Below, one piece after another: positions 51,285 through 62,467 of a stretch of 64,000 nucleotides of DNA (position 1 is its first letter; each line of letters opens with the position of its first letter). The position numbers were made by a program, and so were the translations under genes. Source of the stretch: a virus (taxonomy: Duplodnaviria > Heunggongvirae > Uroviricota > Caudoviricetes); IMG/VR virus record IMGVR_UViG_2541047759_000001. One strand, written 5' to 3'. A model generated the notes under the pieces. It did no database searches and was not told the DNA's origin. It saw nothing but the letters and a program-made list of their open reading frames with translations.

Positions 51285-51315
51285 GTGCAACGATCGGTGT
51301 AGTTAATGGTGTAGT
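51285..51315. repeat. attL direct repeat GTGCAACGATCGGTGTAGTTAATGGTGTAGT
   Basis: Identical 31-bp copy at 62437-62467; sits 26 bp upstream of the integrase gene. Confidence 0.8.
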
Positions 51316-51341
51316 TAATTGTGATGACCGGAATCAAAATT

Positions 51342-52571
51342 ATGAGCAGAGCACTTAACAAACTGAGCGATACACAGCTGAGGAAAATCAACGGCACACC
51401 CGCCCAAAAAACAGCCTTTCTTAATGACGGTGGAAACCTGAGCGTCAGGCATTCAACCAGTGGCCTTTTAACCTGGTATTTCACTTACAGGGCCGGAACG
51501 GGAAGGGGGGCACCACCGGAACGCATTAAGCTGGGAAATTATCCTGATCTGAGCCTGAAATCAGCCAGGGAAAAAGCCGCCCAGTGTCGCGCATGGCTGG
51601 CAGAGGGGAAAAATCCACGTCATGAAATGAATTACACCGTACAGGAAGCGTTAAAGCCGGTAACGGTTGGCGATGCGCTCACCTACTGGCTTGAGTCGTA
51701 CGCAAAGGAAAACCGCGTGGATTATGCCGCCCTGAAAAAGCGCCTTAATAATCACGTAATACAGCACATTGGTGCTATGCCGCTGGATAAATGCGAGCTA
51801 CGGCACTGGCTGGCCTGTTTTGACCAGGTGGCAAAGCGAACGCCTGTTACTGCCGGATTCTTGCTACAGACGTGCAAACAGGCGCTTAAGTTCTGCCGGA
51901 GGCGGCGCTATGCAATCAGCAACGTTCTTGATGATATGAGTGTGGCGGACGTTGGGAAAAAACCGGATATAAGCGAGCGCGTCTTAAGCACCAAAGAACT
52001 TGGCGAATTATTGCAGGCACTGGACAAAAAAATATTTTCCCCTTACTACGTCGCACTAATCCGCCTCCTGATTGTTTTCGGATGCCGGACGGTAGAACTG
52101 AGGTTATCGGAGATCAGCGAGTGGGATTTTACCGAAATGCTCTGGACCGTGCCGAAAGAACACAGCAAAACGAAGGTGGCAATATTCCGGCCCATACCGG
52201 AAGCAATACTGCCGTTCGTCACGCAGCTGGTGGAGCAGAACAGGCACACGGGCTTATTGCTGGGGGAAGTGAAACAGGAAACAAGCGTGTCGCAGTACGG
52301 CAGATTAGCGCACAGGAGGCTAAAACACCCTCACTGGTCACTGCATGACATCCGGCGCACCTTTACAACGATGCTGAACGATTTAGGCGTGGATCCTCAC
52401 GTCGTGGAGCAGCTTACAGGTCATCAGATGCCAGGGATGCAACGAGTCTATAACCATTCCCGTTATCTGGATGCGAAACGTGACGCGCTGGATATGTGGA
52501 CGGAGCGGTTAGGGATACTGGCGGGAACACATGAAAACGTAACCACATTGCCAATAGCCAGAGAAATATAA
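51342..52571 (+). CDS. int: Tyrosine integrase, P4-like family
   Basis: 409 aa; C-terminal 'HDIRRTF...GHQ...RVYNHSRY' catalytic region; adjacent to attL. Confidence 0.88.
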   Translation: MSRALNKLSDTQLRKINGTPAQKTAFLNDGGNLSVRHSTSGLLTWYFTYRAGTGRGAPPERIKLGNYPDLSLKSAREKAAQCRAWLAEGKNPRHEMNYTVQEALKPVTVGDALTYWLESYAKENRVDYAALKKRLNNHVIQHIGAMPLDKCELRHWLACFDQVAKRTPVTAGFLLQTCKQALKFCRRRRYAISNVLDDMSVADVGKKPDISERVLSTKELGELLQALDKKIFSPYYVALIRLLIVFGCRTVELRLSEISEWDFTEMLWTVPKEHSKTKVAIFRPIPEAILPFVTQLVEQNRHTGLLLGEVKQETSVSQYGRLAHRRLKHPHWSLHDIRRTFTTMLNDLGVDPHVVEQLTGHQMPGMQRVYNHSRYLDAKRDALDMWTERLGILAGTHENVTTLPIAREI

Positions 52572-52936
52572 TTTTTTTTGCGATTTTTCAGGATGCGGAC
52601 AACGTGAAACAACGAGACACAACGACGAACAACAAGGAACAAAATGGAACAACGGGTTAAAAATCAGCCATCGTAATAACCATTTGATTTTTATAGGTGT
52701 ACTGTTTTTTTATACACTGGCGAATCACTCTTAAAAATATGTAAAAAAGGCGTAAAAGTAAAATTTTATGCCTTTGCATCATAATGAATTAAAAGAGTTT
52801 TTATTCTCATTTCCCCTGCTTCTGTAAAACGACCGCCGCCAGTGTTTGCCATTCCACAAACACCCTGACACAATCCGACACAACCCAACCCAATAATCCA
52901 CCCAATGACTCTTTAAGAAACAACAAAGGGGGAATT

Positions 52937-53125
52937 GTGTTAAGCACAGATCGCTTTATACGTGAAAAAGAATGTCAGCAACTTACAGGCCTGAGCCGCT
53001 CATGTCGGTACCGCCTGGAAAAAGCCGGACAATTCCCATCACGGCGTAAGCTGGGCGGTCGTTTCGTTGGCTGGTCTTTATCCGAAGTTCTGGCATGGAA
53101 GGACAGCTGCGAGGCAGTTCACTAA
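52937..53125 (+). CDS. alpA: AlpA-family transcriptional regulator
   Basis: 62 aa; 'IREKECQQLTGLSRSCRYRLEKAGQFPSRRKLGGR...GWSLSEVLAW' typical of AlpA. Confidence 0.85.
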   Translation: MLSTDRFIREKECQQLTGLSRSCRYRLEKAGQFPSRRKLGGRFVGWSLSEVLAWKDSCEAVH

Positions 53126-53542
53126 TCAGGCTGGCGGCACACAGCCGCCACCCATCCACTAATACAGAGATCTAACCATGAATACTGGATATTCTCCCGA
53201 ACAAGGGCGGGGCTTCGTTCGTCCTGAAAAACAGAATCTGCAAAATTTTGCCGAAATTATTCCGGTTATTTCCGGCCTTACTGGCGGGAGTGAAACCAAT
53301 ATTGTTAACGCCAGAGCGTTGCAGATGTTTGATGATAAAAAGGGAGTAAATTTAACTTACACCCCTGACGGCAATCAGAATATGAGCATTATCTCTGAGT
53401 CAGGTTTCTACAAACTAATAAAAACAAAAAGCGCCCCGTTGCCGGAGCGCCTTTGTGAACAATTAACCTACTGCGCAAAAAATGAATCTGAGCAGTGGGA
53501 TTATATCAACCATGTGGAGAAGCGCCACAATTGCCGAATAAC

Positions 53543-53574
53543 GGGCAAAACAAAGGCCACCCGCTACGGTGGCC
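53543..53574 (-). terminator. Minus-strand intrinsic terminator ending the divergent regulator operon
   Basis: GGCCACC...GGTGGCC hairpin followed on the minus strand by TTTGTTTTGCCC. Confidence 0.6.
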
Positions 53575-53653
53575 CCTCGACACAAGCTACACGTTATCCC
53601 CAACGCATGAGCATTGCCAACAATGCCACATTTGCGGCTGGTGGGCAATGCAA

Positions 53654-53842
53654 TCAGTCAGGTTCAGTTCGTTGCCATACCTGCAATGAGCGCTTTTCCC
53701 TGTACTCTTTAAGGAATTGCTCAAGGGCAAAAGCACATGGCGCGAATCTTTCTGATTCATGCTCTATCTTTCTGCGCCGTCTTTTCCGTGCCGGTGATAA
53801 TGTTTTGGTCAATTCTTTATCGGTCATTGTGTTGTCCTGCAT
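53654..53842 (-). CDS. Small basic hypothetical protein
   Basis: 62-aa ORF downstream of the RHH gene on the minus strand; 'ARKRRRRK' basic patch. Confidence 0.4.
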   Translation of the reverse strand: MQDNTMTDKELTKTLSPARKRRRRKIEHESERFAPCAFALEQFLKEYREKRSLQVWQRTEPD

Positions 53843-53884
53843 AGCAATGCGCCGTAGTTACTCACACCACGGCGCTGGTGATGG

Positions 53885-54064
53885 TTACTCCTGCTCTTTG
53901 GCCTTGCGGCGCTGGCGGCGTTTGATCTCGCCTTGCATTGACGCAATGATGAATTGTGATGTGCTTTCGCCTGATTCTTTCACTGATTCCATGGCGTTTA
54001 CTATTTCGTGTGGTACACGAGCCTTTAGAGCTTGTGATTTTGCGTTTGTTGTACCCGTTGCCAT
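53885..54064 (-). CDS. Ribbon-helix-helix (Arc/CopG-like) DNA-binding protein
   Basis: 59 aa; 'LKARVPHEIVNAMESVKESGESTSQFIIASM' fits the RHH pattern; divergent from the rightward promoter. Confidence 0.6.
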   Translation of the reverse strand: MATGTTNAKSQALKARVPHEIVNAMESVKESGESTSQFIIASMQGEIKRRQRRKAKEQE

Positions 54065-54125
54065 TTCTATTCCTCTGTTGGATTGGTGGGGGACAGTATA
54101 CACAGAAAAAGCACAAATAAAACCC

Positions 54126-54166
54126 TTGACGTGGGCCACACCTAAAGCATATAGTGGGCCACACCT
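54126..54166 (+). promoter_or_regulatory. Rightward promoter with two GTGGGCCACACCT operator-like direct repeats
   Basis: TTGACG at 54126-54131, 18-bp spacer, TATAGT at 54150-54155; 13-bp repeats at 54131-54143 and 54154-54166. Confidence 0.55.
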
Positions 54167-54263
54167 TGAGATTATCAAGGTGCATAAATGCAAAGCCCCG
54201 CAAGTGTCGTTACCACTCGCAGGGCTTCTAACCACCAACGATAGCGAAAGTATCGAGGTAGCT

Positions 54264-54464
54264 ATGTTAAATCATACCACACACCCGCAAGGGCGGGACT
54301 CGCACAACCTGAATAAATACATCTGGCGTTTTATCGCCCTGAGCACGGCACAACCGCGCGTGATTACCATTGAGGCCACCAGCGAACAGGAAGCACGCCA
54401 GCAATCTCCGGCTGGCTGCGTGATGGTATTTGCTGCCCGTATTCGTCAGGGGGTAGGCTTATGA
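54264..54464 (+). CDS. Small hypothetical protein, first gene of the rightward satellite operon
   Basis: GAGGTAG RBS 5 nt upstream of ATG at 54264; 66 aa. Confidence 0.5.
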   Translation: MLNHTTHPQGRDSHNLNKYIWRFIALSTAQPRVITIEATSEQEARQQSPAGCVMVFAARIRQGVGL

Positions 54465-54691
54465 GCCAGGAAATCACACTACAACAGGCAGCAGAACGCG
54501 CCCACCAAATCGAAGTTATTTGCGCACTGGCAGAGGATTACCCTGGCATGATGACCGACAGCGAATCAGGGGCAATCATCGGCTTACTTAAACGCCTTAG
54601 CGGTGAGGTCTGCGTATTCCTGAGCGATGAACAGGAAAGAAGAACGCTTATTTCTAACGAAAAAAAATGCGGAGGGGTACATGTGCAATAA
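54461..54691 (+). CDS. Small hypothetical protein
   Basis: 76-aa ORF, start overlapping the upstream stop. Confidence 0.5.
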   Translation: MSQEITLQQAAERAHQIEVICALAEDYPGMMTDSESGAIIGLLKRLSGEVCVFLSDEQERRTLISNEKKCGGVHVQ

Positions 54692-55115
54692 AACCACACC
54701 GGACGCAGCCGCCGCCGCACTCACTACGCTGATGCACGCGCTTATTGATATTGAATGCACGGCAGAGCTTGCGCAGGGAGAAGAACAGAAAGACCGGACA
54801 CAGTTCGCCCTGGAATGTATCCGATACATCGCAACGCGGTCGCTGAATGACGCTAAAAATATTCTTGTTGCTGATTGTGAAAATGGGGGGGTTATGCGTG
54901 ATGATCGTTTTAATTCCCTGAAACAGGAATTTTCCGGCGTTCCTGATGATGCGGCTGATGCGCTTTCGTCAATGCCAGAGCTTATTAGAGCGGATTTTTT
55001 CTTACTTTCCACGAGAGAATATAAATCAACGGGGCTTGATGTACTGAATATCGCCGCCGATTATGCTGATTTCGTGACAGAGGTTATTTTAAGAAAAACG
55101 ACGGACGGGGATTAA
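54681..55115 (+). CDS. Hypothetical protein
   Basis: GGAGGGG RBS before ATG at 54681; 144 aa. Confidence 0.55.
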   Translation: MCNKTTPDAAAAALTTLMHALIDIECTAELAQGEEQKDRTQFALECIRYIATRSLNDAKNILVADCENGGVMRDDRFNSLKQEFSGVPDDAADALSSMPELIRADFFLLSTREYKSTGLDVLNIAADYADFVTEVILRKTTDGD

Positions 55116-55116
55116 T

Positions 55117-55350
55117 ATGCGTGATATTTACCACGAAACAATAGACCGCGCATTTCTTGCACTTTCTCACAGTGAAAATATGTTGGAAATATTGCGCATA
55201 TGTCTTGAAACGCTTGGAGATAATGAACGTGATAAACAGAAATCAAGGATTGTCACGGCATTAATAACGCTTCTTGAGCCTGTAATAAATGAGTTGCAGG
55301 AAATAGAGACATTACACGACCAGTATAAAGCGCCCCACACCGGAGAATAA
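55117..55350 (+). CDS. Small hypothetical protein
   Basis: 77-aa ORF starting 2 nt after the upstream stop. Confidence 0.5.
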   Translation: MRDIYHETIDRAFLALSHSENMLEILRICLETLGDNERDKQKSRIVTALITLLEPVINELQEIETLHDQYKAPHTGE

Positions 55351-55355
55351 AAATA

Positions 55356-55655
55356 ATGAAACTTAAATATTCTGGCTTAACTGCCAGTGGCAAAACTCGC
55401 ACTAAATTCATGCGCGGTGATATTTACCGCGATAAGTACGGCGGCACGGTAATGATTAAGGGCGTGGAGGAACGGCGCGTAACCTACCGTCGTGAAGGCT
55501 ACGAATATGATTGCGTGATGCCTGTTTATCAGTTCGACCGTGATTTTTCTCTTGTGCAGGCCGTACCGCGTAACGTGCCCACCAGCAGGGAGAAAGCACG
55601 CGCCAATATTCAGAAGATGAAAACCATGATTAAAGGATTCAGGGGTAAAAAATGA
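55356..55655 (+). CDS. Small basic hypothetical protein
   Basis: 99-aa ORF overlapping the primase start. Confidence 0.5.
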   Translation: MKLKYSGLTASGKTRTKFMRGDIYRDKYGGTVMIKGVEERRVTYRREGYEYDCVMPVYQFDRDFSLVQAVPRNVPTSREKARANIQKMKTMIKGFRGKK

Positions 55656-57406
55656 AACTGGCACCGAACGTAAAACAGCAGTCACGCGGCATAAAACACA
55701 AAGGAACAGAAGTCATTATTTTTGCGGGTAGTGATGCCTGGGCACACGCGAAACAATGGCAGGAACATGATGCGCGTATGGCCGGAGATAATGAGCCTCC
55801 TGTGTGGCTTGGGGAGCAGCAGTTATCAGAACTGGATAAGCTGCAAATTGTGCCGGAAGGCAGAAAATCCGTGCGCATATTCAGGGCCGGATATCTTGCG
55901 CCAGTAATGATAAAGGCGATTGGCCAGAAGCTGGCGGCGGCAGGCGTACAGGATGCAAATTTTTACCCTGATGGTATGCACGGTCAGAAGGTGGAGAACT
56001 GGCGCGAATATCTGGCCCGTGAGCGCCAGAATCTTTCTGATGGTCTGGTCATTGAGCTTCCGGTAAAGCAAAAGGCGCAACTTTCGCAGATGGCGGACAG
56101 TGAGCGCGCGCAGCTGCTTGCCGATCGCTTTGATGGCGTTTGCGTACATCCTGAAAGTGAAATCGTTCACGTATGGCGCGGCGGGGTATGGTGTCCGGTC
56201 AGCACAATGGAACTTAGCCGCGAAATGGTGGCGATCTATTCAGAGCACAGGGCCACTTTCAGCAAGCGCGTAATCAATAACGCCGTGGAAGCGTTAAAAG
56301 TTATTGCCGAACCAATGGGCGAGCCGTCCGGCGATTTGCTGCCGTTCGCCAATGGTGCGCTTGACCTGAAAACGGGGGGATTTTCCCCGCACACGCCGGA
56401 GAACTGGATCACCACGCACAACGGCATTGAGTACACGCCACCAGCACCAGGGGAGAACATCCGCGATAACGCGCCAAACTTTCATAAATGGCTTGAGCAC
56501 GCAGCCGGAAAAGACCCGCGCAAGATGATGCGTATATGTGCCGCGCTGTACATGATTATGGCGAACCGGTACGACTGGCAGATGTTTATTGAGGCCACCG
56601 GAGACGGCGGGAGCGGTAAAAGTACATTCACGCACATAGCCAGCCTTCTGGCAGGGAAACAGAACACGGTAAGCGCTGAAATGACATCGCTTGATGATGC
56701 TGGTGGACGTGCGCAGGTTGTCGGGAGTCGTCTTATCGTCCTGGCTGACCAGCCGAAATATACAGGCGAAGGAACGGGCATCAAGAAAATCACGGGCGGT
56801 GACCCCGTGGAAATTAACCCGAAATACGAAAAGCGTTTCACGGCTGTAATCAGGGCGGTGGTGCTGGCGACCAACAATAACCCGATGATATTCACCGAAC
56901 GGGCCGGAGGTGTGGCACGTCGTCGCGTGATTTTCCGTTTCGACAATATCGTCAGTGAGGCCGAAAAAGACAGGGAGCTACCGGAAAAGATCGCGGCTGA
57001 AATCCCTGTCATTATCCGCCGATTGCTGGCGAACTTTACCGACCCTGAGAAGGCACGGGCTTTACTACTGGAACAGCGTGACGGTGATGAAGCACTGGCA
57101 ATAAAGCAACAGACGGATCCGGTTATTGAGTTTTGCCAGTTCCTGAATTTTCTGGAGGAAGCGCGCGGCCTGATGATGGGGGGCGGTGGCGATTCAGTGA
57201 AGTACACGACCAGGAACAGCCTTTACCGCGTCTATCTGGCGTTTATGGCATACGCAGGCAGGAGCAAACCGCTAAACGTAAATGACTTTGGAAAGGCTAT
57301 GAAGCCTGCCGCAAAAGTTTACGGACATGAATATATTACGCGGAAAGTTAAGGGGGTAACGCAGACTAACGCAATAACAACAGACGAGTGCGACGCGTTT
57401 TTATAA
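55652..57406 (+). CDS. Primase-helicase (P4 alpha / D5-type, P-loop NTPase)
   Basis: 584 aa; Walker A 'GDGGSGKST'; N-terminal primase-like region; followed by the iteron origin. Confidence 0.85.
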   Translation: MKLAPNVKQQSRGIKHKGTEVIIFAGSDAWAHAKQWQEHDARMAGDNEPPVWLGEQQLSELDKLQIVPEGRKSVRIFRAGYLAPVMIKAIGQKLAAAGVQDANFYPDGMHGQKVENWREYLARERQNLSDGLVIELPVKQKAQLSQMADSERAQLLADRFDGVCVHPESEIVHVWRGGVWCPVSTMELSREMVAIYSEHRATFSKRVINNAVEALKVIAEPMGEPSGDLLPFANGALDLKTGGFSPHTPENWITTHNGIEYTPPAPGENIRDNAPNFHKWLEHAAGKDPRKMMRICAALYMIMANRYDWQMFIEATGDGGSGKSTFTHIASLLAGKQNTVSAEMTSLDDAGGRAQVVGSRLIVLADQPKYTGEGTGIKKITGGDPVEINPKYEKRFTAVIRAVVLATNNNPMIFTERAGGVARRRVIFRFDNIVSEAEKDRELPEKIAAEIPVIIRRLLANFTDPEKARALLLEQRDGDEALAIKQQTDPVIEFCQFLNFLEEARGLMMGGGGDSVKYTTRNSLYRVYLAFMAYAGRSKPLNVNDFGKAMKPAAKVYGHEYITRKVKGVTQTNAITTDECDAFL

Positions 57407-57419
57407 TTTTTTGTAATTG

Positions 57420-57650
57420 CTGTCTACCCTGTCTACCTGAGTAAAGAAAAATACATTTAATTCAGTGCATTAAGTTAGGTAGATAGCCTTTTTTTACTGT
57501 CTACCCACTATCTACCCTCTCTACCTGATTTTACCTGAATCAGACAGGGAGGTAGACACGGGGTAGATAGTGGATAAAAGCACTCTACCCCGCTGAAAGC
57601 CGCGCCATTACTGGCATGAGGGCCACTAAGGTAGATAAGGTAGACAAGGG
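57420..57650. repeat. Satellite origin of replication: about 11 copies of the GGTAGA(C/T) iteron in both orientations
   Basis: Copies of GTCTACC / GGTAGAC / GGTAGAT immediately downstream of the primase-helicase gene. Confidence 0.75.
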
Positions 57651-57694
57651 GAGGCACAACTCAAAACTTTTTAAACGAGGGGGTAAAAATAAAT

Positions 57695-57973
57695 ATGCAC
57701 ACTTCAGGGAAATTTAATAAATCACTCAAAAAACGCAGAGACAGAACAGAACCGAAATATCGCGCGTTAGACATGACAGAGCACGCTTTAAAGGTGGCAA
57801 TCAGAACGATAGACCGCCACGCGGGGGAAGGATACGCGAAAGCACATCCCGAACTGATAAGCGCATTCATGACCACGACGGCGGCAAATTTTGCCACGCT
57901 GACAGAGCGGGAGATTGCCGAAGCGGAACAGGTAACAACCATCAACGTTAAAACCGGAGAGGTGGAATCATGA
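57695..57973 (+). CDS. Hypothetical protein
   Basis: GAGGGGG RBS upstream; 92 aa. Confidence 0.45.
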   Translation: MHTSGKFNKSLKKRRDRTEPKYRALDMTEHALKVAIRTIDRHAGEGYAKAHPELISAFMTTTAANFATLTEREIAEAEQVTTINVKTGEVES

Positions 57974-58392
57974 CAGCACAGATAGCAGCTTACGGGCGGC
58001 TGGTGGACGACCCGCAGGTAAAACAGACCAGCAAGGGCACACCGATGACGCTGGCGCGTATGGCGGTCCCCCTTCCGTGCAGCCAGGCAGATGACGGAAC
58101 GGCGACGATGTGGTTATCCGTCCTGGCATTTGGCAGACAGGCCGAAGCACTGGAAAGGCACCGCAAGGGTGAACTCCTGAGCGTGGCGGGTAACATGCAG
58201 ATCAGCCAGTGGACTGGGCAGAACGGAGAAACGCGGCAGGGCTGGCAGGTTATCGCAGACAGTGTAATCAGTGCGCGAACGGCGCGACTGGGCGGCAAAA
58301 AAGGTCAACAGGGCCAGGCTACTGACGCGCTGAACAGGGCAAAACAACAGGCGGGGAATGATGATCCGTACGGGGATAACATACCGTTTTAA
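57970..58392 (+). CDS. ssb: Single-stranded DNA-binding protein
   Basis: OB-fold N-terminus, Gly/Gln-rich linker, acidic C-terminal tip 'DDPYGDNIPF'. Confidence 0.85.
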   Translation: MTAQIAAYGRLVDDPQVKQTSKGTPMTLARMAVPLPCSQADDGTATMWLSVLAFGRQAEALERHRKGELLSVAGNMQISQWTGQNGETRQGWQVIADSVISARTARLGGKKGQQGQATDALNRAKQQAGNDDPYGDNIPF

Positions 58393-58408
58393 GCGACGAG
58401 AGACAGAA

Positions 58409-58430
58409 GCCGGAGCAATCCGGCTTTTTT
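58409..58430 (+). terminator. Intrinsic terminator after ssb
   Basis: GCCGGAGCAATCCGGC hairpin followed by TTTTTT. Confidence 0.75.
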
Positions 58431-58807
58431 ACGGGGCCTCCTGGCGGGGTGGGCCTGAACACGGGGCGGGAAGCGCGGAAAAAAGCGCATTTTTGTGATT
58501 TTATCGTCATCATCATCATGAGCGTAATTTATTGTTTTTAATTGTTTTGATGCAAAAAAGATGATGGTTGTGGTTAATTTTTGTTCGACATCTTTGCAGG
58601 CAGATAAAAAAGCCCGATAAGGTCAGAGGTGGCTTATCGGGCTTTTGCATATGAGGCTTTTTGGTGCACTGACACACATGATCGGGATAATCATTTCATA
58701 ATTTGCAACACAACTCAATATCATTGCACAAAATGCAATCCTGATTATAATCAGAGCTGGATGAACATCCAGTTATGATTTTTTAAGTCAAAGAGGAATT
58801 TCTTACT

Positions 58808-59014
58808 ATGGCTGAAGAGAAAAAAGGCGGTATTTCGGTGTACATAAGCCCCGACATCGTGAAGGCGCTCAAGGAACGCCACCAGCAGAACGTAAAAGCA
58901 GGCATTGCGGCAGGACTTGATCCGCTGGCGATGGTTGAGCCGTCAACAGGCTGGCAGGTACGCGCCTATTTACGCGCGGCGCTGGGTATGAATCAGGTTC
59001 ACGGGGGTGAATAA
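58808..59014 (+). CDS. Small hypothetical protein preceding the satellite capsid gene
   Basis: AAGAGGAA RBS; 68 aa; stop overlaps the capsid gene start. Confidence 0.5.
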   Translation: MAEEKKGGISVYISPDIVKALKERHQQNVKAGIAAGLDPLAMVEPSTGWQVRAYLRAALGMNQVHGGE

Positions 59015-60069
59015 TGACAGTAAAAGCAATGGCACTTAACACTAACCAGCTTTTTGCGTACCTGAATCGCGGGGATATTGCGGAATTTAAATTCAGTCCG
59101 CTGTTTACCACGCTGTTTTTCCCGAACGTGGCGACATTCAGCACGCAAAACATCATGCTGGATACCCTGGACATTGAAGAAGTCACCATGTCGGCGTTTT
59201 GTTCGCCTATGGTGGGTAGCCAGGTTCAGCGCGATAAAGGGTACGAAACCAGCACGATTAAACCTGGCTACATGAAGCCAAAGCACGAAATCGATCCAAC
59301 GAAAACCATCATGCGCATGGCTGGAGAAGATCCGGCACAGCTTAACGACCCTACCTATCGCCGTATGCGCCTGATTACTGGCAATATGCGCCGCCAGATA
59401 AACGCCATAAAAGCGCGCGTGGAATGGCTGGCGGTAAATGCGGTAACGACCGGAAAAAACATCATTGAAGGCGAAGGCATAGAGCGCTATGAAATCGACT
59501 GGAAGATACCGGAAAAAAACATCATAGAGCAGGCCGACGGGAAAAAATGGTCAGAGCAGGACAAAGAAACCCACGATCCAATCTATGATATCGAACTATA
59601 CGCCGATCAGGCTGGTTGCCCCGCAAACGTCATGATTATGGGCGCTGAGGTATGGCGAACGTTACGCAGCTTTAAAAAATTCCGTGAGCTGTACGATCTT
59701 TCCCGTGGTTCAGAGTCCGCCGCAGAGCTGGCCTGTAAAAACCTGGGCGAAGTGGTGAGCTTTAAAGGCTATCTGGGCGATATTGCCCTTATCGTCTATT
59801 CCGGCAAATACACTGACAGCGACGGCACAGAAAAATATTTCCTTGAGCCTGATTTGCTTGTCCTGGGCAACACCAACAATAAAGGGCTGGTGGCCTATGG
59901 TGCGATTATGGATCAGGACGCAGTAAGAACGGGCGCAACGCAAAACATGTTTTACCCGAAAAACTGGATTGAGGACGGCGATCCGGCGATTGAGTACGTG
60001 CAGACGCACAGCGCACCGCAGCCGGTTCCGGCAGATATTCGCAAATTTGTTACCGTCAAAATTGGTTAA
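59014..60069 (+). CDS. Major capsid protein, divergent lambda E homologue
   Basis: Shared blocks with the prophage E: 'EDPAQLNDPxYRRxRxIT', 'NIIEQADGKKWSEQD', 'VVSFKGYxGDxAxxV', 'DGTEK...LVLGNT'. Confidence 0.85.
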   Translation: MTVKAMALNTNQLFAYLNRGDIAEFKFSPLFTTLFFPNVATFSTQNIMLDTLDIEEVTMSAFCSPMVGSQVQRDKGYETSTIKPGYMKPKHEIDPTKTIMRMAGEDPAQLNDPTYRRMRLITGNMRRQINAIKARVEWLAVNAVTTGKNIIEGEGIERYEIDWKIPEKNIIEQADGKKWSEQDKETHDPIYDIELYADQAGCPANVMIMGAEVWRTLRSFKKFRELYDLSRGSESAAELACKNLGEVVSFKGYLGDIALIVYSGKYTDSDGTEKYFLEPDLLVLGNTNNKGLVAYGAIMDQDAVRTGATQNMFYPKNWIEDGDPAIEYVQTHSAPQPVPADIRKFVTVKIG

Positions 60070-60080
60070 CGGGGGATTCT

Positions 60081-60416
60081 ATGGACACTCCATACATTGA
60101 GTTATTTGCAGGCAGTCAGCAGGTCGCCACGACGCTGGTACATTTTGCCGCTGATGCTGGCGTTATTCAGGAATTTACCCCGCTGATGCTGGCGGACAAT
60201 GGCGAGTTTAAGCCGTGGGATGGTAAGGAATCTGGCAAGGCTGTTTATCTGACCTCGTACCCTGTGGACACGTCAAAGCAGAAATCAGCACAGTGTTACA
60301 AGACGGGGATATTCAATATTGCCGCCGTTAACTGGCCTGAGAGCGTCGACACCGATGCGAAAAAATGCGCCGCCTTTGCGGGTTCCGGCGTATCCGTTCA
60401 GCCGCTGGCCCGATAA
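60081..60416 (+). CDS. Head decoration protein, divergent lambda D homologue
   Basis: 111 aa immediately after the E-like gene; 'VNWPESVDTDAKKCAAFAGS' resembles the D C-terminus. Confidence 0.7.
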   Translation: MDTPYIELFAGSQQVATTLVHFAADAGVIQEFTPLMLADNGEFKPWDGKESGKAVYLTSYPVDTSKQKSAQCYKTGIFNIAAVNWPESVDTDAKKCAAFAGSGVSVQPLAR

Positions 60417-60428
60417 GCAGGGGGAACG

Positions 60429-60842
60429 ATGGCAACGAATGAAAGCATCATGACGCTACCGCTGGCGAGTAAATTTAAAGCCGAAGCGCGGGCAATGGCT
60501 GACAGAGGTTTATCAACCTATGAGGCCGTATATCAACTAAACAAACTGGAAGAGCAGGACAAGCCGCGCGCTGATGCGATTATGGCGCTTCATGAGCATA
60601 AAGACTATCAGCCGCTGTTACGTGCAATGGCAAACGTGCCATGTATTAGCGTCGATAATGCTCGTGAAATCCTGAACATGACCATAGAGCAGGAGCGCCC
60701 AAAGGTTGCACCAGAGCTTACCGCAGCCTTTGAAAACTTTATGGACATGCACAGCCCGCAAGCCGTATCAGCTGGCATGGCATACGATGGCAGAAACCAG
60801 GGCGATGACGGCGACATCGATCGCATACTGAAAACCATCTGA
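60429..60842 (+). CDS. Scaffold-like protein related to the C-terminal (Nu3-like) domain of the prophage C gene
   Basis: 'ADAIMALHEHKDYQPLLRAMANVPCISVDNAREILNM' and 'FENFMDMHSPQAV' parallel the C-protein repeats and its C-terminus. Confidence 0.6.
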   Translation: MATNESIMTLPLASKFKAEARAMADRGLSTYEAVYQLNKLEEQDKPRADAIMALHEHKDYQPLLRAMANVPCISVDNAREILNMTIEQERPKVAPELTAAFENFMDMHSPQAVSAGMAYDGRNQGDDGDIDRILKTI

Positions 60843-60848
60843 GACAAG

Positions 60849-60870
60849 GCCGGAGAAATCCGGCTTTTTT
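60849..60870 (+). terminator. Intrinsic terminator after the scaffold-like gene
   Basis: GCCGGAGAAATCCGGC hairpin followed by TTTTTT. Confidence 0.75.
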
Positions 60871-60902
60871 ACGGGTCCTTCCTGGAATTATGGCCCGTTA
60901 CG

Positions 60903-60914
60903 GGGCGGCGACCT
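60903..60914 (+). other. Satellite cos copy 1: cosN GGGCGGCGACCT with cosQ-like upstream and partial cosB
   Basis: 'GGGTCCTTCCTGG...GTTACGGGGCGGCGACCTCGCGGGTTTTCGCTATTTATGA' is near-identical to the prophage cos at 21926; no ATGTCCGG repeats downstream. Confidence 0.8.
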
Positions 60915-61003
60915 CGCGGGTTTTCGCTATTTATGACGTTTTTCCGTGAAGGTGACACCACCACCACTTGATTAATATTTAACCATGCAGTTAAGGTAAC
61001 ATT

Positions 61004-61438
61004 ATGATTGATAAAGCTTGTTTTGTAAGTCAGCAGGAAATAGCTGAACATTTCAAGGTTAACAGAACCACTATTCGCGCATGGACCAAACAGGGGATGC
61101 CGTATCTTAATGCGGATCGCGGAAAGTCTGGCGGTTATCACATCGGGCATACATTGCTTTGGTCTTCAGGTAAAAGCCGTCTTGAGGCCATCAGATATCA
61201 CGTAGAAACCAGTGCGCTGGAAAAAATTATGTTTGCCAGGCTGCTTTCATCTGAGCGTGACGAGTACTCCAGTGAAGAAACAGAACATCGATTTGATGAA
61301 GGTTTGCAGATTTACGGCTATTCACCGGAAGATGTGAGCAAGGCACGAAATAAAATGGCTGGCTTTCTGGCTGGGTGGCGTCATGCCGTAAGCGTTCGCC
61401 GTGCCAGCATGGAGCAATCAGCCGATACAGAACAGTAA
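61004..61438 (+). CDS. Nu1-like small terminase or packaging-redirection protein with N-terminal HTH
   Basis: AAGG RBS; 'QQEIAEHFKVNRTTIRAWTKQGMPY' parallels the lambda Nu1 N-terminal HTH; lies between two inverted cos copies. Confidence 0.6.
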   Translation: MIDKACFVSQQEIAEHFKVNRTTIRAWTKQGMPYLNADRGKSGGYHIGHTLLWSSGKSRLEAIRYHVETSALEKIMFARLLSSERDEYSSEETEHRFDEGLQIYGYSPEDVSKARNKMAGFLAGWRHAVSVRRASMEQSADTEQ

Positions 61439-61641
61439 AGCCGATAACTTGTTAATCACTCGCAGCAATGCATGTGATTTGTGCACACTTTCGGTTAACT
61501 GGTTCGATGTCCGGTTTTAGTGTCTGTTTTTTGCGCATGTCCGGTTCATGGAAAGCATGTTTTTATATTTTTCATATGGTTAACTTGCAGAGAAACCGGA
61601 CATGGATCCCGAAAAATTTTCATAAATAGTGAAAACGCGCG

Positions 61642-61653
61642 AGGTCGCCGCCC
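61642..61653 (-). other. Satellite cos copy 2, inverted: cosN plus full cosB-like region with three ATGTCCGG repeats
   Basis: Reverse complement of 61530-61690 matches the prophage cos from cosQ through 'CATGTCCGGTTTCTCT' and beyond. Confidence 0.75.
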
Positions 61654-61717
61654 CGTAACGGGCCATAATTCCAGGAAGGACCCGACGACACCAGACTATC
61701 AGAACGATGGGGGCACA

Positions 61718-61999
61718 ATGACAGAAGCCGAAATACTGCGATTAATCCGCCGCGTTGCCGGAATCAGCCAGCAGGCCGACGAACAGACCACGCAGCCGGA
61801 CAGCGTGACCGCCGAAAATTATGTTCGTGTGGTTGCTGAGGTGATTCGCCGTAATGGTATCCAGCTTAATGATGTGGATATGCGCAACATACGGATCCGC
61901 GTTCTTGAAATGCTGGCCTACAATCGCCGCGTGGCACTGTATCGGGAAACGGAGAAAATTACGTACCACTGGAAGAAGCCGGAGCGGTTGCGGCGGTAA
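61718..61999 (+). CDS. Hypothetical protein
   Basis: 93-aa ORF starting at ATG 61718 just after cos copy 2. Confidence 0.45.
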   Translation: MTEAEILRLIRRVAGISQQADEQTTQPDSVTAENYVRVVAEVIRRNGIQLNDVDMRNIRIRVLEMLAYNRRVALYRETEKITYHWKKPERLRR

Positions 62000-62170
62000 C
62001 TGGTTGATATTTTCGAAATTCGCCAGCGGCGAACATCGGGGAAACCAGCCTAACCCGTTGATATTTTCGGGAACCTCAAATTGAAGAGGTCGGAAACATA
62101 ACCCGTCATATTCTGGATGCTGATAATTACCACGCAGCCCATTAAGGCCTAACCCGTTGATTCTTCCACA
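62000..62170. repeat. Four direct repeats of about 19 bp (TAACCCGTTGATATTTTCG-like) near attR
   Basis: Copies at about 62001, 62050, 62098 and 62149; followed by palindromes at 62174-62227. Confidence 0.6.
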
Positions 62171-62436
62171 ATCCCCCATTGGGGGAGGCTGGGCGGCCTG
62201 CTGTGGGCTTTTCCACCATTGGTGGAAAGGCGCACATCTGGATCATCATTACGGTGATCAAGGGTATGTAAAACCCACCAGCCTGATTGACATTTAACCG
62301 GAAAAAAGCCAGGTAGCCCCGTTATGGGGATCCCCATATCGACATTAACGCCCCTCATGAATTGGCGCGCTTCCCCCTGGAAAGATGACCCGCCTGTATA
62401 TTTCTTGTGTCTATTTGTTCCACGTTGTTTCATACA

Positions 62437-62467
62437 GTGCAACGATCGGTGTAGTTAATGGTGTAGT
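62437..62467. repeat. attR direct repeat GTGCAACGATCGGTGTAGTTAATGGTGTAGT
   Basis: Identical to 51285-51315; weaker similarity extends about 25 bp further upstream. Confidence 0.8.

What the first reader, a model, noticed from the sequence alone, without database searches (positions are those of the whole stretch)
54264..55655. Five small unrecognised genes between the satellite regulator switch and the primase
Five tightly packed ORFs of 66 to 144 aa sit downstream of the operator-controlled promoter and upstream of the primase-helicase. In other satellites this position holds helper-interference, derepression-sensing or anti-phage functions. I recognise none of them.
Basis: inference. Interest (0 to 1): 0.5.

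Follow-up and report, generated by a model that had tools for sequence, protein, structure and literature searches.

The report
Early operon of a known phage satellite
The five small genes are real and form the front of the replication operon of a well-studied E. coli phage satellite (EcCICFT073 type); two belong to named families, the others remain of unknown function, so the finding is largely ordinary but contains a curious hypervariable stretch.

Summary
The five ORFs exist exactly as described (54264-55655, 66/76/144/77/99 aa). They are tightly packed or overlapping, each has a Shine-Dalgarno-like sequence, and four are under purifying selection.

The island (51285-62467) is 98.3% identical to the published PICI EcCICFT073, and RefSeq already annotates all five genes.

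- **ORF1** is recognisable. It is an Icd-like protein, homologous to phage P1 Icd (cell-division inhibitor) and to Kil of satellite P4.
- **ORF5** is a DUF4222 protein, predicted as a Tudor/SH3-like barrel plus a basic helix.
- **ORF4 and ORF5** form a co-varying pair that sits immediately before the replicase gene in about 75 related islands, whichever of three replicase types follows.
- **ORF2 and ORF3** are acidic, helical, variable cassettes. They occur fused or split according to an A8 run and a hypervariable poly-G run. ORF3 is frameshifted in the transfer-proficient CFT073 island.

None of the five matches known defence proteins. In the literature, deleting rppA alone restores lambda plating. 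Helper interference is therefore not supported.

My best reading is a counterpart of the P4 left operon: a host-arrest leader gene, then accessory modules, then a replication-linked pair. Functions beyond ORF1's family assignment are inferred.

The parts
51285..51315 (.). Left copy of the 31-nt direct repeat that bounds the island (att); the right copy is at 62437-62467
   Evidence: Exact 31-nt repeat found by script. The island lies between roxA and phoQ, as in CFT073.
52937..53125 (+). alpA, the activator/master regulator of Gram-negative PICIs
   Evidence: Pfam Phage_AlpA 3e-17. Its role is shown for EcCICFT073 in PMC6092414.
53654..53827 (-). 57-aa basic hypothetical gene, second gene of the leftward regulator pair
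   Evidence: RefSeq CDS; phrog_21027; dN/dS 0.31.
53885..54064 (-). YlcI/YnfO-family gene, divergent from ORF1; candidate repressor (inference: its sequence looks like a ribbon-helix-helix protein)
   Evidence: NCBIfam NF041551 7.9e-19. The same divergent pairing with an Icd-like gene is seen in loci L004, L006, L008, L010-L012.
54126..54155 (+). Sigma-70-like promoter TTGACG-18-TATAGT for the rightward operon
   Evidence: Consensus scan, 10 of 12 matches. Not verified experimentally.
54131..54166 (.). Two direct repeats GTGGGCCACACCT (start-to-start spacing 23 nt) overlapping the -35 and -10 hexamers; operator-like
   Evidence: the repeat finder family D1.
54264..54464 (+). ORF1, Icd-like protein (homologue of P1 Icd and P4 Kil), basic (pI 10.0)
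   Evidence: NF033153 1.4e-19. BLASTP against P1 Icd: 35% identity over 43 aa, E 2e-6. P4 Kil matches the same model at 1.6e-21. hhalign against the P4 eta/kil ORF gives E 2.7e-5. dN/dS 0.20.
54461..54691 (+). ORF2, acidic (pI 4.8) 76-aa protein, present in only some related islands
   Evidence: phrog_1478 2.9e-28. Full-length match (at least 74 aa) in about 24 of 91 related loci. dN/dS 0.13. Natural ORF2-ORF3 fusion proteins exist.
54660..54667 (+). A8 run in the ORF2/ORF3 overlap; A7 variants fuse ORF2 to ORF3
   Evidence: A8 in 21 loci, A7 in 2. Fused 217-224-aa proteins were found, for example P0148, seen on 52 contigs.
54681..55115 (+). ORF3, acidic (pI 4.4, net charge -12) all-helical 144-aa protein made of two halves; fast-evolving
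   Evidence: phrog_2512 3.3e-54; the two halves match separate PHROG families, 5146 and 24341. 403 protein clusters; the 120 best listed that carry a source name are all named E. coli, and none has a Pfam domain. AlphaFold2 mean pLDDT 55, helices only. dN/dS 0.69.
54885..54891 (+). Poly-G tract (G7) between the two halves of ORF3; hypervariable in length among related islands
   Evidence: CFT073 has G8, which splits ORF3. Tract lengths of G6 to G11 occur among 47 loci. The length differs between loci with identical 150+150 bp flanks in 5 of 8 groups.
55117..55350 (+). ORF4, acidic (pI 4.95) helical 77-aa protein, conserved partner gene immediately upstream of DUF4222
   Evidence: phrog_2196 8.6e-37. 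Present in 77 of 81 loci directly before DUF4222. dN/dS 0.35. Its distance matrix correlates with that of ORF5 (Mantel r 0.51, p 0.001).
55356..55655 (+). ORF5, DUF4222 protein, strongly basic (pI 10.2, net charge +13.5); Tudor/SH3-like barrel plus a C-terminal basic helix; its stop overlaps the primase start
55652..57406 (+). Primase-helicase (pri-rep), last gene of the operon
   Evidence: D5_N, DUF5906 and Pox_D5 matches; 40% identical to P4 alpha over 440 aa.
57414..57651 (.). Replication origin iterons (TCTACC/GGTAGA repeats in both orientations)
   Evidence: the repeat finder. The ori lies downstream of pri in EcCICFT073 (PMC10111431).

Best explanation
The five ORFs are genuine, co-transcribed and translationally coupled genes. 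They make up the 5' part of the rightward early/replication operon of an EcCICFT073-type phage-inducible chromosomal island (PICI). The operon is the structural counterpart of the left operon of satellite P4.

Shown:
- The operon starts with an Icd-like gene (ORF1), homologous to P1 Icd and P4 Kil.
- It ends with a P4-alpha-type primase.
- It is preceded by alpA (the P4 vis homologue).
- The genes in between are not homologous to P4 epsilon, orf151 or cnr.

Inferred mechanism:
- When the helper phage turns on AlpA and the YlcI-type repressor is relieved, transcription starts at the promoter at about 54126-54155.
- ORF1 is translated first. As with P1 Icd, it transiently blocks host cell division. 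Through the ATGA overlap, its translation also licenses translation and transcription of the downstream genes.
- ORF4 (acidic, helical) and ORF5 (DUF4222: Tudor/SH3-like barrel plus basic helix) act as a two-protein unit linked to replication. The unit either adapts the replicase to a host or nucleic-acid partner or limits initiation, as a functional analogue of P4 Cnr. It is not tied to one replicase type.
- ORF2 and ORF3 are dispensable, fast-evolving acidic modules that bind a host or helper protein. They sit where P4 carries epsilon. Their fused or split state is set by hypermutable A and G runs.
For: Identity of the element:
- 98.3% nucleotide identity to CFT073 and 100% to seven other genomes, with the same flanks (roxA and phoQ).

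Coding status:
- dN/dS values, Shine-Dalgarno-like sequences and overlapping junctions.

ORF1:
- Family match and homology to P1 Icd and P4 Kil.
- The same 4-nt start/stop overlap with the next gene as P1 icd-ant1.
- P1 Icd reversibly inhibits cell division and is needed for ant expression (PMC8201110).
- AlpA overexpression in an EcCICFT073 carrier impaired growth and viability (PMC6092414).

Architecture:
- The order YlcI(-) / Icd(+) / 1-6 small ORFs / ORF4 / DUF4222 / replicase recurs in loci L008-L012 and in about 75 IMG/VR loci.

ORF4-ORF5 as a unit:
- ORF4 sits next to DUF4222 in 77 of 81 loci.
- Mantel r is 0.51 for ORF4 against ORF5, but only 0.13 for ORF5 against the replicase N-terminus, even though ORF5 overlaps the replicase gene.
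- The two proteins have opposite charges.

ORF5 fold and basic tail:
-.

ORF2 and ORF3 as accessory modules:
- Presence/absence and many alleles.
- dN/dS 0.69 for ORF3.
- ORF3 is frameshifted in CFT073, yet that island transfers at 1e5-1e6 per ml (PMC6092414).

Specificity to satellites:
- No DNA match for the whole region, and no tblastn match for the ORFs tested (ORF1, ORF3, ORF5), in 50,697 phage genomes, except one capsid-forming PICI.
Against: - No experiment addresses any of the five genes.
- The growth defect after AlpA induction was attributed by its authors to runaway replication, not to an Icd-like protein.
- P1 and P4 control icd/kil with a C4/CI antisense RNA. No such RNA is detectable here or in the eight related PICI loci scanned (L004-L006, L008-L012), whereas the same scan finds it in P4. 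The regulatory logic therefore differs.
- The same DUF4222 protein (WP_000770163) precedes both a RepA helicase and a DUF927 primase. Its alleles barely track the replicase N-terminus. Related satellites L004 and L006 have the same primase family with no DUF4222 detected by tblastn at E 1e-3. All three facts argue against a replicase-specific partner role.
- The ORF3 model has low confidence (pLDDT 55), so nothing structural supports a binding role.
- The ORF4-ORF5 correlation could reflect linkage alone.
Confidence: 0.55

Rival explanations
1. Some or all of the five genes are helper-interference or anti-phage defence effectors that lower plating of lambda-like or unrelated phages.
For: - The variable cassettes and fast evolution of ORF2 and ORF3 are what one expects of genes in a conflict.
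- The equivalent position in P4 carries epsilon, a helper-directed protein.
- The five genes were never cloned and tested individually.
Against: - None of the five has a PADLOC hit.
- Deleting rppA alone restored lambda plaque formation nearly to the island-free level (PMC6739421).
- ORF1, ORF4 and ORF5 are near-universal and under purifying selection, unlike typical swappable defence cargo.
- All are very small and have no enzymatic domain.
Confidence: 0.12
2. ORF2 and ORF3 (and possibly ORF4) are anti-defence or establishment proteins. They would be made in a burst when the satellite DNA enters a new cell, before the repressor accumulates. As acidic, DNA-mimic-like inhibitors they would act on host restriction, RecBCD or other immunity systems.
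For: - They are small, helical and strongly acidic: pI 4.4-4.95, and ORF3 has net charge -12.
- They are the first genes of a repressor-controlled early operon.
- They are mosaic, with many alleles and raised dN/dS.
- They are specific to satellites.
Against: - There is no sequence or structural similarity to Ocr, ArdA, Gam or any solved protein.
- The ORF3 model has low confidence.
- Acidic helical composition alone is weak evidence.
- ORF2 shows low dN/dS (0.13).
Confidence: 0.15
3. ORF4 and ORF5 form a toxin-antitoxin-like or addiction pair: an acidic antitoxin followed by a basic small-barrel toxin. The pair would stabilise the island rather than serve replication.
For: - It is a conserved two-gene unit with opposite charges and co-varying alleles.
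Against: - There is no hit to any toxin-antitoxin or defence model.
- The pair lies inside a repressed operon and is translationally coupled to the replicase. It is not under its own autoregulated promoter.
- The best fold matches are Tudor/KOW-type interaction domains, not toxins.
Confidence: 0.05
4. The ORFs, or some of them, are chance reading frames or decaying pseudogenes in a defective island.
For: - ORF3 is interrupted by frameshifts in most relatives.
- ORF3 has dN/dS of 0.69.
Against: - dN/dS is well below 1 for ORF1, ORF2, ORF4 and ORF5 over hundreds of pairs.
- Shine-Dalgarno-like sequences and coupled junctions are present.
- Hundreds of protein clusters exist for these genes.
- The near-identical CFT073 island is fully mobilisable.
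- In frameshifted ORF3 variants both halves stay open, and the second half has its own ATG.
Confidence: 0.03

Closest known systems
EcCICFT073, the model Gram-negative PICI of E. coli CFT073 (Fillol-Salom et al. 2018, 2019)
   Same: It is the same element type at the same chromosomal site (roxA-phoQ). The query region is 98.3% identical. Gene order is the same: int, alpA, YlcI-type gene, Icd-like, small ORFs, DUF4222, pri, SSB, capsid, decoration, rppA.
   Different: Here ORF3 is one 144-aa gene (G7). In CFT073 a G8 tract splits it into two 73-aa ORFs. The window's island lacks the PerC gene that CFT073 has after SSB. In the papers read here, no function is reported for any of the five genes.
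Left (early) operon of satellite phage P4: CI RNA, kil/eta, epsilon, orf151, cnr, alpha
   Same: The order of homologous end-points is the same. A vis/alpA gene lies upstream. An Icd-like first gene follows (P4 Kil matches NF033153 at 1.6e-21). Small genes come next, then an alpha-type primase that is 40% identical.
   Different: The middle genes are unrelated: no match to epsilon (PF25738), cnr (DUF5375) or orf151. P4 controls the operon with the CI (C4-type) RNA and isrK-like target. These are found in P4 but not here. Here there is instead a divergent YlcI/YnfO gene and repeat operators. The helpers also differ: P2 for P4, lambdoid phages for this island.
immI operon of phage P1: c4 RNA, icd, ant1/ant2
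   Same: An Icd-family protein is the first gene, with a 4-nt overlap to the next gene. P1 Icd reversibly blocks cell division and is needed for expression of the downstream gene (PMC8201110).
   Different: Identity is only 35% over 43 residues. There is no c4 RNA. The downstream genes are small acidic proteins and a replicase rather than the antirepressor Ant. Some sister PICIs carry AntA or BRO genes, but upstream of the switch.
Tudor/SH3-like interaction domains of UvrD/PcrA (C-terminal) and CarD/Mfd (RNA-polymerase-interacting domain)
   Different: Sequence identity is 10-16% and there is no profile match to any PDB chain. Fold class alone does not show binding to RNA polymerase. ORF5 also adds a C-terminal basic helix.

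Membership tests
Icd-like host cell division inhibitor (NCBIfam NF033153; P1 Icd, P4 Kil) | Profile match above the curated cutoff | tested here: met
   ORF1 scores 69.9 bits against a cutoff of 25, E 1.4e-19. With the same model P1 Icd scores 52.6 bits and P4 Kil 76.1 bits. The invariant residues F23, A38, E41, A44, R45 and R59 are shared with both.
Icd-like host cell division inhibitor (NCBIfam NF033153; P1 Icd, P4 Kil) | First gene of an early operon, translationally coupled to the next gene | tested here: met
   It is the first ORF after the promoter-like site. An ATGA overlap joins it to ORF2, as for P1 icd-ant1. Coupling itself is inferred from sequence.
Icd-like host cell division inhibitor (NCBIfam NF033153; P1 Icd, P4 Kil) | Control by an upstream C4/CI-type antisense RNA | tested here: not met
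   No C4 or isrK match in the window, even at E up to 10, or in eight PICI loci. Both RNAs are found in P4 by the same scan.
Icd-like host cell division inhibitor (NCBIfam NF033153; P1 Icd, P4 Kil) | Expression inhibits cell division or kills the host | not testable with these tools
   This needs expression in E. coli and microscopy.
DUF4222 (Pfam PF13973) | Profile match above the gathering score | tested here: met
   ORF5 scores 85 bits against a cutoff of 27, E 2.5e-24, over residues 17-68. The family has no known function.
P4 epsilon (Derepression family PF25738), P4 Cnr (DUF5375), P4 orf151 | Sequence or profile homology | tested here: not met
   None of the five ORFs has a Pfam hit to these families. 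hhalign of the ORF1-5 profiles against the P4 proteins gives E of at least 0.097. tblastn against P4 finds nothing below E 0.7.
Known anti-phage defence systems (PADLOC-DB 2.0) | Match to any defence-protein model | tested here: not met
   No hit for ORF1-5 at E up to 1.
Gram-negative PICI (EcCICFT073 type) | int and alpA at the left end, a pri-rep gene followed by ori iterons, about 11 kb in size, direct-repeat att sites, and no tail or lysis genes | tested here: met
   int 51321-52571, alpA, pri, iterons at 57414-57651, a 31-nt att repeat bounding 11.2 kb, and capsid, decoration and rpp-region genes only. The query region (54200-55700) is 98.3% identical to CFT073 and the gene order matches across the island.
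Gram-negative PICI (EcCICFT073 type) | Induction and high-frequency transfer by a helper phage | not testable with these tools
   This is shown for the CFT073 island (PMC6092414) but not for this strain's copy.

The most novel reading that the evidence does not exclude
The operon may hide two unstudied satellite-specific devices.
(a) ORF4 and DUF4222 could be a new two-protein controller. The Tudor-like protein would dock on a conserved host machine (RNA polymerase, a helicase or SSB) to couple transcription of the operon to replication initiation. It would work with any of three replicase types.
(b) ORF2, ORF3N and ORF3C could be a set of ~75-aa acidic modules whose covalent arrangement (separate or fused) is switched by hypermutable A8 and G7-G11 tracts. 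That would be a contingency locus inside a phage satellite, diversifying an anti-host or anti-helper binder.
Probability: 0.2. Interest if true: 0.6.

Novelty: already known. Interest (0 to 1): 0.3.

Why it matters
These genes sit in roughly a third of complete E. coli genomes, inside the best-studied Gram-negative phage satellite. Yet the papers on that satellite do not examine them. Work there focused on alpA, int, pri and the genes after the origin.

Several links made here turn a block of 'hypothetical proteins' into testable hypotheses about how PICIs take over the cell and start replication:
- the first gene is the counterpart of P1 Icd and P4 Kil;
- ORF4 and DUF4222 form a conserved pair that is independent of the replicase type;
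- the middle genes are variable and toggled by homopolymer runs.

It does not reveal a new kind of system.

Tried and rejected
- **RNA immunity element.** I looked for a C4/CI or isrK RNA upstream of ORF1, as in P1 and P4. None was found at E up to 10, while P4 gave both.
- **Homology to P4 genes.** Homology of ORF2-5 to P4 epsilon, orf151 and cnr was rejected. ORF5 against orf151 gave only E 0.097, despite a shared G-[DE]-I-Y-R start.
- **Paralogy among the ~75-aa helical units.** ORF2, ORF3N, ORF3C and ORF4 showed no significant BLAST or hhalign relationship; the best was ORF3C against ORF4 at E 0.036. My single-linkage family F1 merged ORF2 with ORF3, probably because fusion proteins bridge them.
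- **Homologues in real phages.** There was no DNA match, and no tblastn match for ORF3 or ORF5. ORF1 hit only one capsid-forming PICI deposited as a phage.
- **Solved-structure relatives by sequence or profile.** ORF1, ORF3, ORF4 and ORF5 gave nothing below E 0.3.
- **ORF3 structure.** Mean pLDDT was 55, so I ran no fold search on it.
- **AFDB fold library.** It was unavailable.
- **Large repeat proteins.** Two such proteins hit by ORF5 in the representative search are InlB-B-repeat proteins with sub-threshold DUF4222 scores. I discarded them as spurious.
- **Genome-contig scan with the primase.** It returned only three loci, so I used E. coli genomes and IMG/VR instead.
Full report

Yes. The + strand between 54264 and 55655 carries five ORFs of 66, 76, 144, 77 and 99 aa. 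They join one another and the primase gene (55652-57406) as follows:
- ORF1/ORF2: 4-nt overlap (ATGA)
- ORF2/ORF3: 11-nt overlap
- ORF3/ORF4: 1-nt gap
- ORF4/ORF5: 5-nt gap
- ORF5/primase: 4-nt overlap (ATGA)

Each start has a GGAG/GGGG-type Shine-Dalgarno-like sequence 6-11 nt upstream (read). RefSeq annotates the same five CDS in a genome that is 100% identical over this stretch.

A sigma-70-like promoter (TTGACG-18-TATAGT, 54126-54155) lies upstream. Two 13-nt direct repeats, GTGGGCCACACCT, overlap its -35 and -10 hexamers. The consensus scan finds no + strand terminator-like or promoter-like site inside the five-gene block. This is consistent with one transcription unit running into the primase.

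**2. What is the element?**

The block is 98.3% identical to E. coli CFT073 and 100% identical to seven other complete genomes. The surrounding 11.2 kb is bounded by a 31-nt direct repeat (51285-51315 and 62437-62467) and lies between roxA and phoQ. Its gene content is:
- int and alpA
- two small leftward genes, one of the YlcI/YnfO family
- the five ORFs
- a D5/P4-type primase, followed by ori iterons (57414-57651)
- SSB, lambda-E-like capsid and decoration genes, and the rpp region

This is the published PICI EcCICFT073 (PMC6092414, PMC6739421). In that literature:
- AlpA is the helper-induced activator.
- int, alpA and pri were mutated.
- Only genes after the ori were cloned one by one to look for lambda interference. 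That screen found rppA (c1503).
- Deleting rppA alone restored lambda plaques almost to the island-free level.

None of the papers I read tests the five ORFs. A later survey of about 3,400 islands places this part of PICIs in 'Bro' and 'Replication' zones and treats such genes as hypothetical (PMC10111431).

**3. Are they genes?**

I collected 90 related loci: E. coli RefSeq hits, one Shigella, one Serratia, one Morganella, a capsid-forming PICI and 80 IMG/VR contigs. Median pairwise dN/dS (Nei-Gojobori) was:

| Gene | Median dN/dS |
|---|---|
| ORF1 | 0.20 |
| ORF2 | 0.13 |
| ORF3 | 0.69 |
| ORF4 | 0.35 |
| ORF5 | 0.27 |
| primase | 0.15 |
| alpA | 0.06 |

(a smaller set agrees, except for ORF2, where a single low-divergence pair gave 0.84). 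Four of the five are clearly under purifying selection. ORF3 evolves fast.

The block is specific to satellites. Among 50,697 phage genomes there is no DNA match and no tblastn match for ORF3 or ORF5. ORF1 hits only vB_KppS-Ant, a 16.5-kb capsid-forming PICI.

**4. ORF1**

ORF1 matches NCBIfam NF033153 'host cell division inhibitor Icd-like' at 69.9 bits (cutoff 25). It aligns to phage P1 Icd at 35% identity over 43 residues (pairwise E 2e-6).

The 65-residue Kil reading frame is nested in P4 eta (X51522 8365-8168, read on the - strand). It matches the same model at 1.6e-21 and matches my ORF1 profile by hhalign at E 2.7e-5. P1 Icd, P4 Kil and the PICI proteins share six invariant residues.

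P1 Icd reversibly blocks cell division and is needed for expression of the downstream ant gene (PMC8201110). The icd-ant1 junction is the same 4-nt overlap seen here between ORF1 and ORF2.

One defining accompaniment is missing. P1 and P4 control icd/kil with a C4/CI antisense RNA. Rfam finds C4 and isrK in P4, but not in this window (even at E 10) and not in eight related PICI loci. These islands instead pair the Icd-like gene with a divergent YlcI/YnfO gene and repeat operators.

**5. ORF5 and ORF4**

ORF5 is a DUF4222 protein (85 bits, cutoff 27). It is strongly basic (pI 10.2, net charge +13.5). The family is narrow: only 45 representatives at E up to 1e-3 among 1.84 billion cluster representatives. 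No function has been published.

ORF4 is acidic (pI 4.95), looks helical from its sequence (it was not modelled), and has no family beyond phrog_2196. It sits immediately upstream of DUF4222 in 77 of 81 loci. A recognisable ORF4-like gene also precedes the primase in the capsid-forming PICI, where tblastn at E 1e-3 found no DUF4222.

Protein distance matrices correlate as follows (Mantel test):
- ORF4 against ORF5: r 0.51, p 0.001
- ORF5 against the first 125 residues of the replicase, whose gene it overlaps: r 0.13
- Icd against anything: about 0

The gene after DUF4222 can be a D5-type primase, a RepA-family helicase or a DUF927 primase. An identical DUF4222 protein precedes both of the last two. 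I conclude that ORF4 and ORF5 behave as one unit attached to the replication module but not matched to a particular replicase. The linkage to replication is positional; the function is inferred.

**6. ORF2 and ORF3**

Both are acidic (pI 4.8 and 4.4; ORF3 has net charge -12). ORF3's model is all-helical; ORF2 was not modelled. Neither has a Pfam, NCBIfam, PADLOC or PDB match. The ORF3 model has low confidence (pLDDT 55) and shows helices only, with an N-terminal hairpin.

This is the variable part of the operon. Between Icd and DUF4222, related islands carry one to six ORFs in 18 different arrangements. A full-length ORF2 match is present in only about a quarter of the loci.

Two homopolymer runs set the reading frames:
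- **A8 run (54660-54667), in the ORF2/ORF3 overlap.** A7 variants encode ORF2-ORF3 fusion proteins of 217-224 aa. One such protein was seen on 52 contigs.
- **Poly-G run (54885-54891, G7), between the two halves of ORF3.**
  - CFT073 has G8, which splits ORF3 into two 73-aa ORFs.
  - Among 47 loci the run is G6 (1), G7 (15), G8 (20), G9 (7), G10 (3) and G11 (1).
  - In five of eight groups of loci with identical 150+150 bp flanks, the run length differs. The run therefore changes faster than point substitutions accumulate.
  - An ATG directly after the run, with the G-run as a Shine-Dalgarno-like sequence, gives the C-terminal half its own start in the shifted variants.

EcCICFT073 itself carries the split form and still transfers at 1e5-1e6 per ml. 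An intact ORF3 is therefore not needed for induction, replication or transfer.

Sequencing error at homopolymers is a caveat for individual contigs. However, the CFT073 G8-length form recurs in four assemblies, and the window's G7 is seen in seven complete genomes.

**7. How it most likely works**

The operon is the counterpart of the P4 left operon. A vis/alpA gene lies upstream. An Icd-family first gene comes next, then a run of small genes, then an alpha-type primase that is 40% identical over 440 residues. The middle genes are unrelated to epsilon, orf151 and cnr.

My best explanation (confidence about 0.55 for the whole; much higher for the parts marked as shown):
- On helper-driven induction the promoter fires.
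- ORF1 arrests division and licenses downstream expression by coupling.
- ORF4 and ORF5 act with the replication module.
- ORF2 and ORF3 are dispensable binders of a host or helper factor.

Rivals:
- An anti-defence or establishment role for the acidic proteins (0.15).
It is weakened by the rppA deletion result and the lack of PADLOC hits.
- An ORF4/ORF5 toxin-antitoxin-like pair (0.05).
- Non-genes (0.03).

**8. Novelty and verdict**

The element and all five CDS are already in the literature and in RefSeq. Two of the five belong to named families. The finding is real but ordinary as a discovery, so I rate it 'already known' with interest 0.3.

What is not, to my knowledge, written down:
- the equation ORF1 = P1 Icd = P4 Kil in this PICI, without the RNA repressor;
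- the ORF4-DUF4222 unit that is independent of replicase type;
- the Tudor-like fold of DUF4222;
- the hypervariable poly-G and poly-A tracts that fuse or split ORF2, ORF3N and ORF3C.

The last point is the most unusual. It is the basis of the novel reading (probability 0.2).

Noticed in passing
window 54885-54891: A poly-G tract inside ORF3 is G7 here and G8 in CFT073, and ranges from G6 to G11 among 47 related islands. It differs between islands with identical 300-bp flanks. Only G7 and G10 keep ORF3 as a single protein. This looks like a hypermutable (contingency-type) tract.
   Followed up: partly
window 54660-54667: An A8 run lies in the ORF2/ORF3 overlap. A7 variants (2 of 23 loci) encode ORF2-ORF3 fusion proteins of 217-224 aa, and these are also common in public assemblies.
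   Followed up: partly
window 54160-54275: The predicted ~100-nt leader between the promoter and the ORF1 start folds into three hairpins. The energy is -33.9 kcal/mol, with a z-score of -4.1 against shuffles. It has no Rfam match and no U-tract.
   Followed up: no
window 55652-56026 (first 125 aa of the primase): This N-terminal domain has no Pfam match. It is shared at 63-66% identity by the RepA-helicase-type and DUF927-type replicases that follow DUF4222 in other islands. Three replicase types therefore carry a common head domain.
   Followed up: partly
window 53178-54464: A 428-codon open frame continuous with ORF1 runs antisense through the two leftward regulator genes. It is probably a shadow frame. 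Annotators sometimes extend the Icd-like CDS into it, for example the 123-aa call in L011 and the 324-aa CDS of LR881103 (L004 8578-9552).
   Followed up: partly
window 53427-53454 (- strand): A strong terminator-like hairpin (12-bp stem followed by a T-run) lies about 200 nt downstream of the leftward 57-aa gene. It probably ends the leftward regulator transcript.
   Followed up: no
window 1-46200: A lambdoid prophage lies 5 kb from the satellite. It carries int, xis, dicB, cro/cI-type genes, Q, Nu1-like terS, terL, portal, lambda-E-like capsid and tail genes. Several tail genes are marked frameshifted in the RefSeq annotation of the identical strain. Whether it can act as helper is unknown.
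   Followed up: no
window 57493-57574: A weak Rfam 'mir-135' hit (E 0.29) is simply the palindromic arrangement of the ori iterons.
   Followed up: yes
window 58400-59000, compared with L002 12172-12420: The CFT073 island has a PerC-family regulator gene after SSB. The island in this window lacks it.
   Followed up: no
window 55335-55350 (end of ORF4): Most ORF4 alleles, even those only about 30% identical, end in ...HTGE. The codons CAC ACC GGA GAA TAA contain the GGAG upstream of the DUF4222 start. The conservation may therefore be at the level of the ribosome-binding site.
   Followed up: no
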